64,000 nucleotides of DNA from Eledone cirrhosa (Eukaryota). Numbering within the stretch: position 1 is the stretch's first letter; the number at the start of each line of letters is the position of its first letter. Below the pieces are notes generated by a model, which saw only the letters and a program-made list of their open reading frames with translations, had not been told where the DNA came from and made no database searches. This document shows positions 1-34,172 of the stretch, in pieces. Position numbers and translations under genes: made by a program. The stretch spans positions 75,702,001-75,766,000 of the forward strand of contig OZ024741.1 in assembly GCA_964016885.1 (NCBI GenBank), read 5' to 3'.

Positions 1-397
1 CGTATTTTAATTATTCTGTCGTTCACTCTATTTACGTCTATTATCTTATCTGCCCACTTTTCTGCTACCATGATTCCTACTCCACCCAGCCCATCGTCGT
101 TTCCCACCCAGAAAAGCTTATAACATCGTTTTTTACCCTCAATGAATCTAGCAGACCCACCCCTCCACCTGGTCTCTTGAATACAACAAACATCGACCTC
201 CTTACGTTCAAGCATTTCTACAACCTCGTTAGCGCGACCCTTTAGGGTGCCTACATTTACGGTACCAACTCTGAAGTTTTGGATTGCGTTTGGGGGGCGG
301 GGGGAGATGGGGTTATGTTAGCCGCCCGCGGTTGAAACAAAGAGGAGTGCTCGCATTCTCGTCCACGAGGTGAATTTGTCTTCAACTTTGGCATTTT
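1..397 (-). mobile_element. 5' end of an RTE-A LINE copy (leader and N-terminal APE endonuclease), running off the left window edge
   Basis: Reverse complement matches about 9980-10411 of the full-length copy. It translates as FRVGTVNVGTLKGRANEVVEMLERKEVDVCCIQETRWRGG...VGIMVAEKW..IIDVNRVNDRIIKIR. Confidence 0.92.
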
Positions 398-426
398 CGA
401 TATATATATATCTCGAAAATGCCTCC

Positions 427-524
<98 letters not shown>

Positions 525-655
525 GGAGGCATTTTCGAGATATATATATATATCGAAAATGCCAAAGTTGAAGACAAATTCACCTCGTGGACGAGAATGC
601 GAGCACTCCTCTTTGTTTCAACCGCGGGCGGCTAACATAACCCCATCTCCCCCCG
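298..655. repeat. 358-bp near-perfect palindrome centred on (TA)n
   Basis: 298-430 is the reverse complement of 521-655, differing by one TA unit. The spacer is self-complementary (TA)n. Confidence 0.97.
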
Positions 656-28260: not shown

Positions 28261-30845
28261 TTCGACAGTCAGGAAGAGCAATTAGAGTCGTATAATATAG
28301 AGGAACAGTGGGAATTCCTGAGAGCAAACCTGCTGATGGCGGCAGACGAAGTCTGTGGCTGGAGCAGGCTTGTAGGTGGGAGGAGAGTAACATGGTGGTG
28401 GAACAGTAAGGTGGAGGAGTCAATTAAGGCCAAAAAGCAGGCTTGGAAAGTATGGCGGTATGGGGGAAGTAGAGAAGACTATCAAGTGGCCAGGAGGAAA
28501 GCTAGGAGACAAGTGTACTTCGCAAGAAGGGAAGCAGAGGAAAGAAAGTTCAAGCATGTTCTACAACGTGAGGACCAAAAACGTGAGGTGTTCAGGATTG
28601 CCAGGCAATGTGTCAAGGAAAACCGTGATATTGTCGGGGAGAAGTGTGTACTTAACGATGATGGCATACTTGCCATCACCGACGCTGATAAGAAGGTAGC
28701 TTGGAAGTGTCACTACGAAAGGCTTCTAAATGAGGAGAATAAATGGGAGAAAGACAGTCTCCCCCACATCGACCCAATAGAGGGACCAGCAGTGTTAGTC
28801 CAGGGTAGTACAATAAGCAAGGCAATCAAAGATATGAAGACGGGTAAGGCGGCTGGTCCTTCGGAAATAGTTGCTGAGATGCTGAAGGCATCTGGTTCGG
28901 TGGGACACACCATGGTCACCCGCATAGTTAACCAAGTCGTACAGAATGGGGTTGTTCCGAAGGACTGGCGTAGCAGCATCATCGTTACCTGCTATAAGGG
29001 AAAAGGAGATGCCCTAGATAGGAGTAACTATAGAGGCATTAAATTAATCGACCAGGTCATGAAGGTCACGGAAAAAGTAATAGCGCAACTAATCAGAGAG
29101 AGAATTGATCTAGATGAAATGCAGTTCGGGTTTGTGTCAGGCAAAAGTACCACAGACGCTCTTTTCATCGTACGACAACTACAGGAGAAGTACCTAGCTA
29201 AAAGTAAACCCCTATACTTAGCTTTCGTCGACTTGGAGAAAGCCTTCGACAGAGTCCCCCGTTCCATTATCTGGTGGTCTCTTAGAAAACTAGGTGTTGA
29301 CGAATGGCTTGTGAGAGCTATACAAGCCATGTATAAAGAAACAGTCAGTAAGGTTAGAATTAACAACGAATATAGTGAAGAGTTTAGCGTAAAAGTTGGT
29401 GTCCATCAGGGCTCTGTTCTTAGCCCCCTACTATTTATTATTGCCCTTCAGGCTATAACAGAGGAGTTCAAGACCGGCTGCCCATGGGAACTCCTATACG
29501 CAGATGATCTAACGTTCATAGCTGAATCAATGACCGAACTAGAGAAGAAATTCCAAACATGGAAGCACGGCCTAGAATCAAAGGGCCTTAAAATTAACCT
29601 GGCTAAGACTAAAGTTCTAGTTTGTAGGAAAGAAAATAAGGCGGCGGTCCCTTCTGGGAAATGGCCATGCTCAGTGTGTAGGAAAGGCGTAGGTAGAAAC
29701 TCCATTTTATGTCCCAAATGCAAAGTATGGGTGCATAAAAGATGTAGTGGGATCACAGGTAAGCTAACTAAGAACATAGATTTTACATGTGGCCGGTGCT
29801 CTGGTGCAATAAGTAGCAGCAAGTGCCCACAAATACTAGCTCCTTCAACTGCGCAGAGGGTTCTATAGAAATAGTGGACAGCTTCCGTTACCTGGGTGAC
29901 AAAATCAGCAGTGGGGGAGGGTGCTCTGAAAGTACTGTAGCTAGAGTCAGAACTGGATGGAAAAAGTTCAGAGAGCTTATACCACTATTAGCCGCTAGAG
30001 GGTTCTCCCTAAAAATGAAAGGCAGGTTATATGATGCCTGCATACGAACAGCAATGCTGCATGGCAGTGAGACCTGAGCATTGTGTGCAGAGGATATACG
30101 CAGACTAGAGAGGAACGAAGCTTGCATGCTCCGCTGGATGTGCAATAGTAATATACGTGAACAGCAAAGCATAAACGAACTAAGGAAAAAATTAGAAATA
30201 AGAGGGATCAGATGTTGTTTACTCGAGAGAAGGCTACGTTGGTACGGTCACGTGATGCGCATGAAAGACGACAGCTGTATAACAAAGTGCAGGGCAATAA
30301 AGATAGACGGTAGCCACGGAGTAGGCAGACCCAGAAAAACTTGGGACGACATGATAAATTCTGACCTCACACGCTTACACCTCTCCAAGACAATGTCACT
30401 GGACCGAGACCTTTGGCGGTACTCAGTAATAGAGAAGACCCGCCTTACCTAAATACAAAGTAAAAACCTACTACAGTCAGTAGGCATCTCTATCAAAACA
30501 CACCCCCGTCCCACCACCTCCACCCCATCCACACCGCCCCTTTTAATGTAAAGTTATGTTGGTCCCACAACATCCAGTCCGAAAAAAATGAGGTCGTGTA
30601 GGTGTCACGACAAAAAAACACACAGTCCACGCTGTAAGGTGGCCGTGTAGGTAACACGGTAAAAACCTCCCAGTCCACACTGTAAATGTGGTTGGTGTTA
30701 GGAAGGGCATCCAGCTGTAGAAAACCCGCCAGACAGTCCTATGCGAGCAAGACAACCACTCTTGCCTCAAGTGGGAAAACCCCCGTCCAAACCCATGCAA
30801 GCGTGGAACACGGACGCTAAACCCGATGATGATGATGATGATGAT
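28261..30845 (+). mobile_element. 5'-truncated RTE-A copy (RT, PHD, 3' UTR)
   Basis: ORFs 28336-29868, 29823-30077 and 30081-30452 are near-identical to the 10724-13174 protein. There is a 1-bp frameshift near 29830 and TGG>TGA at 30075. (GAT)n tail and (TA)n flanks. Confidence 0.96.
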
Positions 30846-30970
30846 ATATATATATTAATAAAAGGAATTCCAGCTTTGTCTGATTTACTCGTTTTATTTA
30901 CAATCCTTTAAAATTTATAATGGTATTAGAATGAAATAGTATGATAGAATATTAAATGTTAAGTGTTAAT

Positions 30971-31009
30971 TGAACAAGTACTTTCATGCTTTCGCAATCT
31001 TCAGGTTCA
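30971..31009 (-). ncRNA. Minimal type I hammerhead ribozyme
   Basis: Minus strand reads TGAAC CTGAAGA T-TGC-GAAA-GCA-T GAAA GTAC TT GTTCA. Stem I is TGAAC/GTTCA, stem II is GNRA-capped, and the stem III loop is the palindrome GTAC. Confidence 0.8.
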
Positions 31010-31112
31010 TATTCTGTGGTGACAGTCAAGTTTGCAATTTTCAACTGTGAAAATTTCGACAGTTGAATTTTCGACAGTTGAAAATTGCAAACTTGACTGT
31101 CACCACATAATA

Positions 31113-31151
31113 TGAACCTGAAGATTGTGAAAGCATGAAAGTACTTGTTCA
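31113..31151 (+). ncRNA. Minimal type I hammerhead ribozyme
   Basis: TGAAC CTGAAGA T-TGT-GAAA-GCA-T GAAA GTAC TT GTTCA. The C>T change in stem II still allows a U-G pair. Confidence 0.78.
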
Positions 31152-31423
31152 ATTAACACTTAACATTTAATATTCTATCATATTATTCTATTCTAATACC
31201 ATTATAAATTTTAAAGGATTGTAAATAAAACGAGTAAATCAGACAAGGTTGGAATTCTTTTTATTAATATAATCTTCTATACACAATCATACACACCCGT
31301 GTATATTTATATATATATATATATAGTGGTAGAACACTGGAAGGTAATATCCGTAGTGGTACAGCACTCAGTCCATGGGACGAGTTAGGTAGGAGTGGTT
31401 ACACAACAGTTAATTCATCATGC

Positions 31424-31461
31424 CAAGAACAATTGTTTCACCTTAGCGGATCCTCAGCTCG
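31424..31461 (-). ncRNA. Minimal type I hammerhead ribozyme (inverted arm)
   Basis: Minus strand reads CGAG CTGAGGA T-CC-GCTAA-GG-T GAAAC AATT GTT CTTG. Stem I is CGAG/CTTG with a G-U pair. Confidence 0.78.
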
Positions 31462-31765
31462 TAATGGGCATGGTTATACGGAACAGGAAGGACAACCGTA
31501 CGAACGCGCATGCGCAGAAACCCGTCACTTCACACAGGCAATACTAAAATGCGTGCGAGAGGTGTAAGGGAGATAACTGCTAAAGTCCGAAAGGTTTTTA
31601 GTTGATAAGAAAAAATATTGATGTTGCTACAATAATTCATTCAATCCGGAGCTTTGTAGTTATGCAATAGGTGTTTCGAGACATGTGGACAAATTCATTT
31701 TTCGTGTTTAGGCAATCACTATTGCATAATCTCTTTAGAATATTTATTCGTTCGTCAATACACAG

Positions 31766-32611
31766 GCCACTGTTTTTAGAAACTTCGTAAATAATATAAG
31801 TACTAAAATCTCAAACCTCTCCTCTAATAAGGCTATCTTTGACAGGGCGGCACCCTACTCTAACACGGAGTTAGCTAACAGCGGCTTCTCGCAACCTATC
31901 ACTTACTCTCCCACTATCAACAACAGCAATAAGAAAAGAAAGCGCAACAATAGACAAACTATCTGGTTCTCTCCTCCCTTCTCACTCAACGTTAAAACCA
32001 ATGTAGGCAAAAAATGTCTAGCCCTCTTAGATAGACACTTTCCCATAGGTCATAAATACCGCTCCATCTTTAACCGATACAAAATAAAACTAGGATACTC
32101 CTGCGCTAAGAACATGAAGGCCCACATCACCAGCAGCCCTAGGAGCAACACCCCACCAGAGTGCTCTTGCCGTAAGATTGAAGCTTGCCCCCTTCAACAG
32201 CAATGTAACACACCAGCTGTAATTTATGAAGCTGTGGTCACTTCCAACCAACCAAATCAACCACAGGAGGTCAAATCCTATGTGGGCATGGCGGAGGGCC
32301 GATTTAAGGAACGTTTCCTGAACCATCAGTCGACCTTTAGGTATCCGGACAGACGTTCATCCACGAAACTGGTGAGCCACGTATGGTCCCTCAAGGACTC
32401 AAGTATAGACTACTCCATTCAATGGAAAGCCATCACTAAGTCCAAACAATACGCAAGGGGAAATCCGTCGTGTGCACTGTGTATTGACGAACGAATAAAT
32501 ATTCTAAAGAGATTATGCAATAGTGATTGCCTAAACACGAGAAATGAATGTTTCACACGTTGTCCAGACGTCTCAAAACACCTATTGCATAACTACAAAG
32601 CCCCGGATTGA
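31766..32611 (+). pseudogene. PLE RT thumb/linker and GIY-YIG endonuclease, open but 5'-truncated
   Basis: Frame is open upstream of ORF 32114: KISNLSS...IWFSPPFSLNVKTNVGKK.L.LLDRHFP..H....IFNR..IKLGYSC. Then CSCRKIEACPLQQQC, VIYEA..YVG.AEGRFKERF.NH, CALC.DE...I....LNTRNE. Confidence 0.92.
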
Positions 32612-32790
32612 ATGAATTATTGTAACAACATCAATATTTTTTCTTATCAACTAAAAACTTTTCGGACTTTCGCAGTTATCTCCCTTACACCTCTCGCACG
32701 CATTTTAGTATTGCCTGTGTGAAGTGACGGGTTTCTGCGCATGCGCGTTCGTACGGTTGTCCTTCCTGTTCCGTATAACCATGCCCATTA

Positions 32791-32828
32791 CGAGCTGAGG
32801 ATCCGCTAAGGTGAAACAATTGTTCTCG
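32791..32828 (+). ncRNA. Minimal type I hammerhead ribozyme in the PLE 3' pseudo-LTR
   Basis: CGAG CTGAGGA T-CC-GCTAA-GG-T GAAAC AATT GTT CTCG. Perfect stem I, both core boxes, a palindromic AATT loop and a GUU site. Confidence 0.85.
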
Positions 32829-32860
32829 GTATGATGAACTAACTGTTGTGTAACCACTCC

Positions 32861-32920
<60 letters not shown>

Positions 32921-32940
32921 TAAGACTAAAGTCTTAGACA

Positions 32941-34172
32941 TGTCTAAGACTAAAGTTCTAGTTTGTAGGAAAATAGGGCACCGGTCCCATCTGGGAAATG
33001 GCCATGTTCAGTGTGTAGGAAAGGAGTAGGCAGAAACTCCATTTTATGTCCCAAATGCAAAGTATGGGTGCATAAAAGATGTAGTGGGATCACAGGTAAG
33101 CTAACTAAGAATATAGATTTTATATGTGGCTAGTGCTCAGGTGCAATAAGTAGCAGCAAGTGCCCACAGAATACTAGCTCATTCCATTGCACAGATGGTT
33201 CTATAGAAATAGTTGACACCTTCCGTTACCTGGGTGACAAAATCAGCAGTGGTGGAGGGTGCTCTGAAAGTACAGTAGCTAGAGTCAGAACGGGATGGAA
33301 AAAGTTCAGAGAGCTTATACCACTATTGGCTGCTAAAGAGTTCTCTCTAAAAATGAAAGGCAGGCTGTATGATGCCTGCATACGAACAGCAATATAACAT
33401 GGCAGTGAGACTTGGGCATTGTGTGAAGAGGATATACGCAGACTGGAGAGGAACAAAGCTTGCATGCTCCGCTGGATGTGTAATAGTAATATACGTGAAC
33501 GCCAAAGCATAAACGAACTAAGGGAGAAATTAGGAATAAGAGGGATCAGATGTCGTTTACTCGAGAGAAGACTACATTGGTACGGTCACGTGATGCGCAT
33601 GAAAGACGACAGCTGTATAAAAAAGTGCAGGGCGATAAAAATAGACGGTAGCCACAGAGTAGGCAGACCCAGAAAAACCTGGGATGACTTGATAAATTCC
33701 AACCTCACACACTTACACCTCTCCAAGACACTGTCACTGGACCGAGACCTTTGGCGCTACACAGTAATACAGAAGACCCGCCTTGCCTAAGTACAAAGTG
33801 AAACCTACAGTCAGTAGGCACCTCTAACAAAAATACACCCACTTCCCACTACTCCCCACCCCATCCACACCACCACTTTCAATGTAAAGTTATGTTGGTA
33901 CCACAACATCCAGTCCGAAATAAATGAGGTCGTGTAGGTGTCACGACAAAAAAACACACAGTCCACGCTGTAATGTGGCCGTGTAGGTAACACGGTAAAA
34001 ACTTCCCAGACCCACACTGTAAACGTGGTTAATGTTAGGAAGGGCATCTAGCCGTAGAAAAACCTGCCAGACAGTCCTATACAAGCAAGACAACCAATCT
34101 TGCCTCAAGTGGGACAATTCCTGTCTAAACCCATGCTAGCGTGGAAGATAGATGTTAAACGATGATGATGAT
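32941..34172 (+). mobile_element. 5'-truncated RTE-A copy
   Basis: Near-identical to 12321-13695, with stops. ORF 33419-33790. (GAT)n tail and (TA)n flanks. Confidence 0.95.

What the first reader, a model, noticed from the sequence alone, without database searches (positions are those of the whole stretch)
30971..32828. Four minimal hammerheads within 1.9 kb, as two sense/antisense pairs with an unusual U-U closing pair on stem II
Seen: two unrelated families, at 30971-31009(-)/31113-31151(+) and 31424-31461(-)/32791-32828(+). Both read CUGAnGA-U-[stem]-U-GAAA, so positions 10.1/11.1 are U-U instead of the usual G-C. Both have palindromic stem III loops (GTAC, AATT) and NUU cleavage triplets. 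The differences between arms keep pairing (C-G to U-G, G-C to G-U). Known: minimal PLE hammerheads with palindromic loop III are thought to cleave as dimers. Inference: this is a shared variant core, and transcription from either strand meets a ribozyme.
Basis: partly seen in the sequence, partly recalled or inferred. Interest (0 to 1): 0.75.

Follow-up and report, generated by a model that had tools for sequence, protein, structure and literature searches.

The report
Inverted Penelope ends with U·U hammerheads
The four self-cutting-RNA motifs are real but ordinary: they are the ends of two neighbouring Penelope-type jumping genes, each inserted as a head-to-head pair, and their U·U variant is the family norm and already published, although a pile-up of genomic copy ends at the predicted cut site hints that one family likely does cut itself now and then.

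Summary
All four motifs are at the stated coordinates and exceed chance. They are not four independent ribozymes. Each sense/antisense pair is one pseudo-LTR (pLTR) present twice in a head-to-head Penelope-like (PLE) insertion. Family A is Neptune/Nematis-like (6,107 genomic matches); family B is Hydra-clade (3,357). U10.1·U11.1 is the consensus in both (98 and 92 of the first 100 listed, no G-C), so it is not decay. It is also published: 14 of 25 Hydra-clade families in Craig 2021 File S2, about 60,000 axolotl retrozyme motifs that cleave in vitro, and Perreault 2011. The two 'pair-keeping' arm differences are rare CpG transitions, not evidence of selection. A read-through transcript of either strand is predicted to zip into a long hairpin that buries the motif, so 'either strand meets a ribozyme' is unlikely to matter. 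Extra result: family A head-to-head junctions number 1,029 at a likely transcription start, 91 around the predicted cut and 12 in a control window, a possible footprint of occasional cleavage in vivo. This scan noted such footprints and twin-primed stubs before on other DNA. No RNA run was available.

The parts
30851..31048 (-). Family A (Neptune/Nematis-like PLE) pLTR arm without tail; inner end at the family's common 5' boundary, outer end at the proximal 3' end
30971..31009 (-). Type I hammerhead A-: 5-bp stem I, U·U plus 3-bp stem II, 6-nt palindromic stem III, CUU triplet; predicted cut between 30976 and 30975
31049..31073 (.). 25-nt junction between the two A arms, made of short repeats of the arm's own 5' end
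   Evidence: sequence; junctions of other copies
31074..31310 (+). Family A pLTR arm with tail (tail about 31272-31310); starts 73 nt upstream of the predicted cut, at a likely Pol II start
   Evidence: matches the upstream pLTR of the full-length element in L102 at 91%
31113..31151 (+). Type I hammerhead A+; predicted cut after 31146; carries a rare C-to-T change at 31128
31311..31325 (.). (TA)n stretch between the two insertions (likely shared target)
   Evidence: sequence; (TA)n preference per PMC8557442
31326..31770 (-). Family B (Hydra-clade PLE) inverted 5'-truncated arm: ORF 3' end, pLTR and tail (tail about 31326-31389)
31424..31461 (-). Type I hammerhead B-: 4-bp stem I with one G·U private to this locus, U·U plus 2-bp stem II, 8-nt palindromic stem III, GUU triplet; predicted cut between 31428 and 31427
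31768..32611 (+). 5'-truncated family B ORF: end of the RT region, CxCX5C linker and GIY-YIG-type endonuclease with CxxC; 86.5% identical to the 722-aa frame of the full-length copy L235
   Evidence: no Pfam match
32612..32860 (+). Family B 3' pLTR, no tail
32791..32828 (+). Type I hammerhead B+; predicted cut after 32824
32861..32917 (.). (TA)n flank of the family B insertion

Best explanation
The region holds two adjacent Penelope-like retroelement insertions in one (TA)n stretch, each present as a head-to-head pair of pLTR arms that carry the family's standard U·U type I hammerhead, likely made by two separately primed cDNAs of an uncleaved element RNA, and these genomic copies are predicted to be inactive passengers. 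Shown: the motifs, the inverted arms, the PLE parents (full-length copies L102 and L235), U·U as family consensus, and one arm with and one without tail. Inferred: in the parent elements the motif is a slow ribozyme that needs a second copy (the other pLTR or another molecule) to build stem III through its palindrome, with U·U stacking in place of G10.1-C11.1. Most templates are copied uncleaved from the transcription start; a minority of family A templates were likely cut first. Here a read-through transcript would fold arm on arm and bury the motif.
For: Inverted arms. Parents: L102 has direct pLTRs, GLKF, DKG, YLDD, CX4CxxC, and Pfam RVT_1 plus GIY-YIG. L235 has direct pLTR hammerheads 2,577 nt apart, RWR, DKT, YRDD and CxCX5C, matching the Hydra definition. 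Consensus U·U: 98 and 92 of the first 100 listed. Outer ends: one proximal and one tailed arm in 22 of 31 A loci and 10 of 12 B loci with head-to-head arms (my tally after merging loci that are the same place). This fits two RT start sites and extension of both strands in vitro (PMC11167929). Both window A arms reach the same 5' boundary; 1,029 junctions sit there, 31 nt downstream of a TATAAAA in L102. Folding with both arms: stem I and II probability 0.000, motif bases paired outside the motif 0.97-1.00; homo-duplex stem III -4.8 and -6.4 kcal/mol, A/B hetero-duplex +0.2. Precedent that U·U cleaves: axolotl HHR_Amex2, 22% in 1 h as monomer and much more as dimer; U·U is the best tolerated mismatch. 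Homologous tandem families C (U·U) and D (G-C) swap this pair in the same register with covarying stems (68% over 252 nt).
Against: No cleavage or expression data for these motifs. Equilibrium folding does not favour the hammerhead even in one arm alone (stem I probability at most 0.005 for B, 0.003 for A in its arm), so function of the parent motif rests on precedent and cross-family conservation. Twin priming was not separated from fold-back of one cDNA by a direct test. Nine of 31 A loci and 2 of 12 B loci do not show the proximal/tailed pattern. Family B shows only 2 junctions near its predicted cut. Neptune versus Nematis was not resolved and no tree was built.
Confidence: 0.85

Rival explanations
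1. One reading: a new shared U·U core, kept on both strands so that transcription from either side is cut at this locus.
For: U·U is consensus in both families and in a third. Both orientations are present, and both arm differences keep pairing. Co-transcriptional folding could in principle differ from the equilibrium prediction.
Against: U·U is published. The orientation follows from the common inverted insertion. On either strand the antisense arm is transcribed first, so the motif emerges next to its complement and is predicted to be buried. No same-family partner lies on the same strand in the window. Arm differences match neutral expectation.
Confidence: 0.04
2. The U·U/NUU motif is kept in these PLE lineages mainly as a folded signal or protein-binding site (for example for the element's RT-EN) and does not cleave to any meaningful extent in vivo.
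For: The large majority of counted A junctions (1,029 against 91) come from templates that extend upstream of the cut. B has 2 junctions near the cut. In the anole element, ribozyme mutants do not affect insertion in vitro, no RNA-seq reads end at the cut, and cleavage needs the protein. Minimal PLE hammerheads cleave weakly.
Against: 91 versus 12 junctions in matched windows, with 25 of 49 ending at -2 to +1. The catalytic core is intact across distant clades. U·U retrozymes cleave and give circular RNAs in axolotl.
Confidence: 0.25
3. The two U residues are not a pair at 10.1/11.1. They are an inserted nucleotide at 9.1 plus an unpaired U before GAAA, flanking a shorter stem II (a different drawing of the same sequence).
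For: Cervera 2014 reports a conserved extra nucleotide between 9 and 10.1, and both papers' tables place these U residues outside stem II for Hydra elements.
Against: In homologous families C and D, U...U and G...C occupy the same register with equal stem II length and loop. Perreault 2011 and Cervera 2020 describe it as a U-U mismatch at the base of helix II.
Confidence: 0.15

Closest known systems
Hydra-clade PLE hammerheads (Craig et al. 2021, PMC8557442; passages, the Hydra section, supplement parts 1-2 and supplement search passages read)
   Same: Family B has DKT, CxCX5C, an RWK-like motif, length under 3 kb and (TA)n flanks. 14 of 25 Hydra families in File S2 read CUGAnGA-U...U-GAAA, 8 of those 14 with U at the cleavage site (my count). 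Penelope-13_HM is listed on both strands because of an inverted 5' copy.
   Different: Family B is not among the listed families by hammerhead sequence. Its stem II has only 2 Watson-Crick pairs (listed U·U families have 3-5) and its stem III is a perfect 8-nt palindrome.
[quoted passage not shown]
   Same: Type I, short stem I, palindromic stem III, weak dimer-dependent cleavage. Opposite-strand pairs 100-700 bp apart are described there, and Fig. S3 holds a U...U Hydra magnipapillata motif.
   Different: Their consensus has G10.1-C11.1 and a 6-8 bp stem II; A and B have U·U and 3 or 2 pairs. A Neptune/Nematis-like family with U·U was not seen in the rows I read.
Axolotl retrozyme HHR_Amex2 (Cervera and De la Pena 2020, PMC7229834; passages and section 15 read)
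   Same: U·U mismatch at the base of helix II in about 60,000 genomic motifs; cleaves weakly as monomer and better as dimer.
   Different: A tandem non-autonomous retrozyme with longer stems. Here A and B are PLE pLTRs; family C of this genome is the closer parallel.
Natural U10.1-U11.1 core variants (Perreault et al. 2011, PMC3088659; passages and section 8 read)
   Same: Same mismatch, with two-pair stem II described as common.
   Different: Reported as a rare variant; here it reaches tens of thousands of copies in one genome.
Poseidon element PAc of the anole (PMC11167929; passages read)
   Same: Two RT start sites bounding the tail, both strands nicked and extended, uncleaved RNA the main template.
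   Different: Different PLE clade; no trace of cleavage was found in its RNA-seq, whereas family A shows a possible genomic trace.

Membership tests
Type I hammerhead ribozyme | Core CUGANGA ... GAAA ... UH with stem I closing | tested here: met
   all four motifs
Type I hammerhead ribozyme | G10.1-C11.1 pair (most conserved pair, known exceptions) | tested here: not met
   U·U in 98 and 92 of the first 100 listed copies, 0 G-C; U·U is a published natural exception
Type I hammerhead ribozyme | Self-cleavage 3' of H17 | not testable with these tools
   No assay. Indirect genomic trace in family A, none in B
Dimer-dependent PLE hammerhead | Palindromic stem III able to pair between two copies | tested here: met
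   Homo-duplex -4.8 and -6.4 kcal/mol, hetero-duplex +0.2
Dimer-dependent PLE hammerhead | Located in the pLTR of a PLE | tested here: met
   L102 and L235 carry the same motifs in direct pLTRs around RT-EN frames
Hydra clade PLE (family B) | DKT in place of DKG | tested here: met
Hydra clade PLE (family B) | CxCX5C linker; CxxC and CxH around the conserved E and N; no CCHH cysteines in the GIY-YIG core | tested here: met
   CxCX5C in the window ORF and L235. CxxC is in the window ORF; the CxH reads C-P-D here but C-P-H in L091 and L092. No cysteines between the two core motifs (read by eye)
Hydra clade PLE (family B) | RWK motif, no GxKF/Y at the N-terminus | tested here: met
   RWR (conservative variant) at residue 103 of the L235 frame; no N-terminal GxKF
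Hydra clade PLE (family B) | Short (under 3 kb) and inserted in (TA)n | tested here: met
   2,577 nt between pLTR hammerheads; TA flanks
Hydra clade PLE (family B) | Groups with Hydra elements in an RT tree | not tested
   No tree built; published Hydra proteins compared by eye only
Neptune/Nematis PLE (family A) | C-terminal GIY-YIG with two internal cysteines (CCHH) and a CX2-5CxxC linker; DKG; GxKF | tested here: met
   (L102); second histidine read by eye
Neptune/Nematis PLE (family A) | Neptune rather than Nematis by phylogeny | not tested
   No reference proteins at hand; no tree built
Canonical EN+ PLE insertion | Inverted 5'-truncated copy at the 5' end; tail at one end only | tested here: met
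   Window arms, and 22 of 31 A and 10 of 12 B head-to-head loci; definition

The most novel reading that the evidence does not exclude
The weakest-looking hammerhead build (U·U closing pair, 3-bp stem II, CUU site) really cuts in the germ line: a few percent of family A insertions were copied from RNA that starts at the ribozyme cut, so the genome itself records in vivo cleavage by a PLE hammerhead. U·U also arose or spread separately in a Neptune-like PLE, a Hydra PLE and a tandem retrozyme of one genome, as a tuned slow-cleavage state that lets most templates be copied whole.
Probability: 0.4. Interest if true: 0.45.

Novelty: new member of a known kind. Interest (0 to 1): 0.22.

Why it matters
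As given, it matters little: U·U hammerheads, palindromic stem III and opposite-strand pairs in PLE insertions are all in print. Two side results have some value. First, descriptors that demand a pair at 10.1/11.1 would miss about 40,000 motifs in this genome (36,810 plus 3,357). Second, whether PLE hammerheads cleave in vivo is open (PMC8557442 calls their function unclear; PMC11167929 found no cleaved ends), and the excess of family A junctions at the predicted cut offers a genome-only way to test it.

Tried and rejected
Rfam gathering scan: no match. Pfam on the window ORF and on family B frames: no match. My first genome pattern had the stem III loop mis-specified, missed both families and gave 172 mixed matches against 21 control; not used for counts. 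Sequencing runs: no RNA holder listed; contigs of two runs of unknown kind were laid and only show a high-copy repeat, with no information on ends or expression. The sigma-70 promoter scan of L102 does not apply to an animal element and was ignored. L236 was not a usable full-length copy. Lunse, Weinberg and Breaker 2017 on dimer-cleaving PLE hammerheads is not held; it may tabulate 10.1/11.1 identity and I did not see it. Literature searches: U10.1/U11.1 wording gave only Perreault 2011 as a relevant paper; a search for a cleavage-site footprint or twin priming in PLE copies gave 0 papers with 4 of 5 terms, a narrow search of an incomplete library. Read without bearing on the question: PMC13282606 (passages; no hammerhead mention), bioRxiv 10.64898/2026.07.22.740005 (part 1 of 5; its supplements are closed), PMC6765202 and PMC10085705 (passages). 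Rejected: U·U as decay; arm differences as covariation; A/B heterodimer; a splice acceptor as the A 5' boundary (arms keep the ACAG itself and upstream letters vary; inference).

Full report
1. Observation. A generic type I hammerhead descriptor finds four sites in the window, exactly those named. Shuffles gave 0.24 generic sites each and none with palindrome plus stem II (100 shuffles). Rfam misses them. Family A reads: 5-bp stem I, CUGAAGA, U, 3-bp stem II with GAAA loop, U, GAAA, GUAC, UU. Family B reads: 4-bp stem I, CUGAGGA, U, 2-bp stem II with 5-nt loop, U, GAAA, CAAUUG, UU.

2. Each pair is one sequence twice. The A motifs lie in the arms of a 210-nt, 94% inverted repeat; the B motifs lie in a 308 + 83 nt, 94-96% inverted repeat around a 290-codon frame. 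The A arms differ at 8 of 197 positions and the B arms at about 10 of 303 (two end positions dropped). One difference per motif is therefore expected (1.6 and 1.3), and the chance that both are structure-neutral is about 0.07. Both differences are C/T at a CpG. The A variant occurs in 1 of the first 100 listed genomic copies. The B variant appears only at this locus among the copies scanned. They are not evidence of selection.

3. Parents. The genome is 3.0 Gb; I did not determine the organism. Exact patterns with 10.1 and 11.1 left free give 6,107 matches for A and 3,357 for B, with controls 0. Family A: L102 holds a full-length element with direct pLTRs, GLKF, DKG, YLDD, a CX4CxxC linker and a GIY-YIG domain with internal cysteines, which is Neptune/Nematis-like by the criteria. 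Family B: L235 holds direct pLTR hammerheads 2,577 nt apart around a 722-aa frame with RWR, DKT, YRDD and CxCX5C, 86.5% identical to the window frame. This matches the Hydra clade as defined in PMC8557442. Both insertions sit in TA runs, which explains why they are neighbours (inference from the published (TA)n preference).

4. U·U is consensus and known. Among the first 100 listed matches, 98 (A) and 92 (B) are U·U and none is G-C; the rest are single changes (my counts). A generic U...U pattern with a 4-nt stem III loop gives 36,810 matches (control 16), and a G...C pattern gives 32,769 (control 27). The two patterns are not symmetric and cover one loop class only, so this shows comparable abundance, not a census. 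The first 100 U...U rows are family A and a third family, C, often in 420-500 bp tandem arrays. One C unit is homologous to units of a G-C family, D (68% over 252 nt), with U·U and G-C in the same register and covarying stems. In print: Perreault 2011 reports natural U10.1-U11.1 and calls it the best tolerated mismatch. Cervera 2020 reports about 60,000 axolotl motifs with U·U that cleave 22% in one hour as monomers and much better as dimers. Craig 2021 File S2 lists U...U in 14 of 25 Hydra families, 8 of them with U at the cleavage site, and one family on both strands (my count). Cervera 2014 describes opposite-strand pairs 100-700 bp apart and shows the Hydra magnipapillata U...U motif in Fig. 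S3.

5. How the pairs form. In head-to-head loci one arm stops at a proximal 3' end and the other runs on through a tail: 22 of 31 A loci and 10 of 12 B loci (my tally after merging duplicates; 6 A loci have an interrupted arm and 3 have like ends). The window shows this in both insertions. It fits two RT start sites and priming on both nicked strands, as shown in vitro for an anole PLE. I first read the palindromes as fold-backs; earlier notes of this scan suggested twin priming, and the outer-end pattern favours it without proving it. Both A arms in the window end at the same inner position, 73 nt upstream of the predicted cut. 1,029 junctions genome-wide lie there, 31 nt downstream of a TATAAAA with CCAAT-type boxes further up in L102. 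I infer a Pol II start. These arms were therefore copied from uncleaved RNA.

6. Would the motifs work here? On either strand the antisense arm comes first. With both arms in the transcript, stem I and II probabilities are 0.000 and motif bases pair outside the motif with probability 0.97-1.00. Stem III palindromes pair within a family (-4.8, -6.4 kcal/mol) but not between A and B (+0.2), and no second same-family copy lies on the same strand in the window. The claim that transcription from either strand meets a working ribozyme is therefore unlikely. Equilibrium folding also disfavours the hammerhead in a single arm, which tempers both this prediction and the case for activity in the parents.

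7. Possible cleavage footprint. With 10-letter anchors of similar conservation (63 and 66 of 68 arms exact), head-to-head A junctions number 91 around the predicted cut (pattern control 2) and 12 in a window just upstream of the core. I examined 49 of the 91 (the first listed). The longer arm begins at -2 to +1 in 25, against 13 at -3 to -9 (p about 2e-4), 7 of which sit at the stem III palindrome; 9 begin at +2 to +4 and 2 further upstream. Four of these calls are distorted by point mutations. Against a cleavage reading: local microhomologies and palindromes could steer joins here, some loci are duplicates, RT pausing at stem I is possible, and family B shows only 2 junctions in the equivalent window. 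The scan has noted such footprints before in this and another genome. I did not find it in print in one narrow search.

8. Verdict. The feature is real, is explained by known PLE biology, and is a new member of a known kind. Interest 0.22. The boldest reading left, in vivo cleavage recorded in the genome, has probability about 0.4. Lunse 2017 could not be read and may already cover the 10.1/11.1 statistics.

Noticed in passing
L111-L140, e.g. L137-L140; also L051, L057: Family C: a very abundant U·U hammerhead (4-bp stem II, CUAG palindrome, GUA site), often in 420-500 bp tandem arrays like a non-LTR retrozyme; it dominates the 36,810 matches.
   Followed up: partly
L141, L164; G000:C1:5738326-5752444: Family D: G-C counterpart of family C in 466-bp tandem arrays of 30 or more units, with the last unit inverted; homologous to C outside the ribozyme.
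   Followed up: partly
L144-L170: Further abundant minimal hammerhead families with an extra nucleotide at 9.1, G10.1-C11.1, long stem II and a non-palindromic GAAC stem III loop.
   Followed up: no
L005:~140-530 (- strand): A hammerhead with the U3-A8 core covariation downstream of a diverged Hydra-like endonuclease fragment.
   Followed up: no
G000:C4:197881361-197881389: A family B-like core with the same stem II but a different 6-nt stem III palindrome (CGATCG), a palindrome-preserving change.
   Followed up: no
L102:3228-4655 (- strand): The full-length family A element has a separate 476-codon frame upstream of its RT-EN frames; whether this is a second ORF or a frameshifted N-terminus was not examined.
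   Followed up: no
window 29000-30846 and 32920-34000: LINE-type RT fragments (RTE-like by recall, no call) flank the region; the left one ends in a (GAT)n tail directly before the (TA)n target.
   Followed up: no
window 31326-31389: The family B tail is about 64 nt, longer than the 30-40 nt usually described, with a small direct repeat inside.
   Followed up: no
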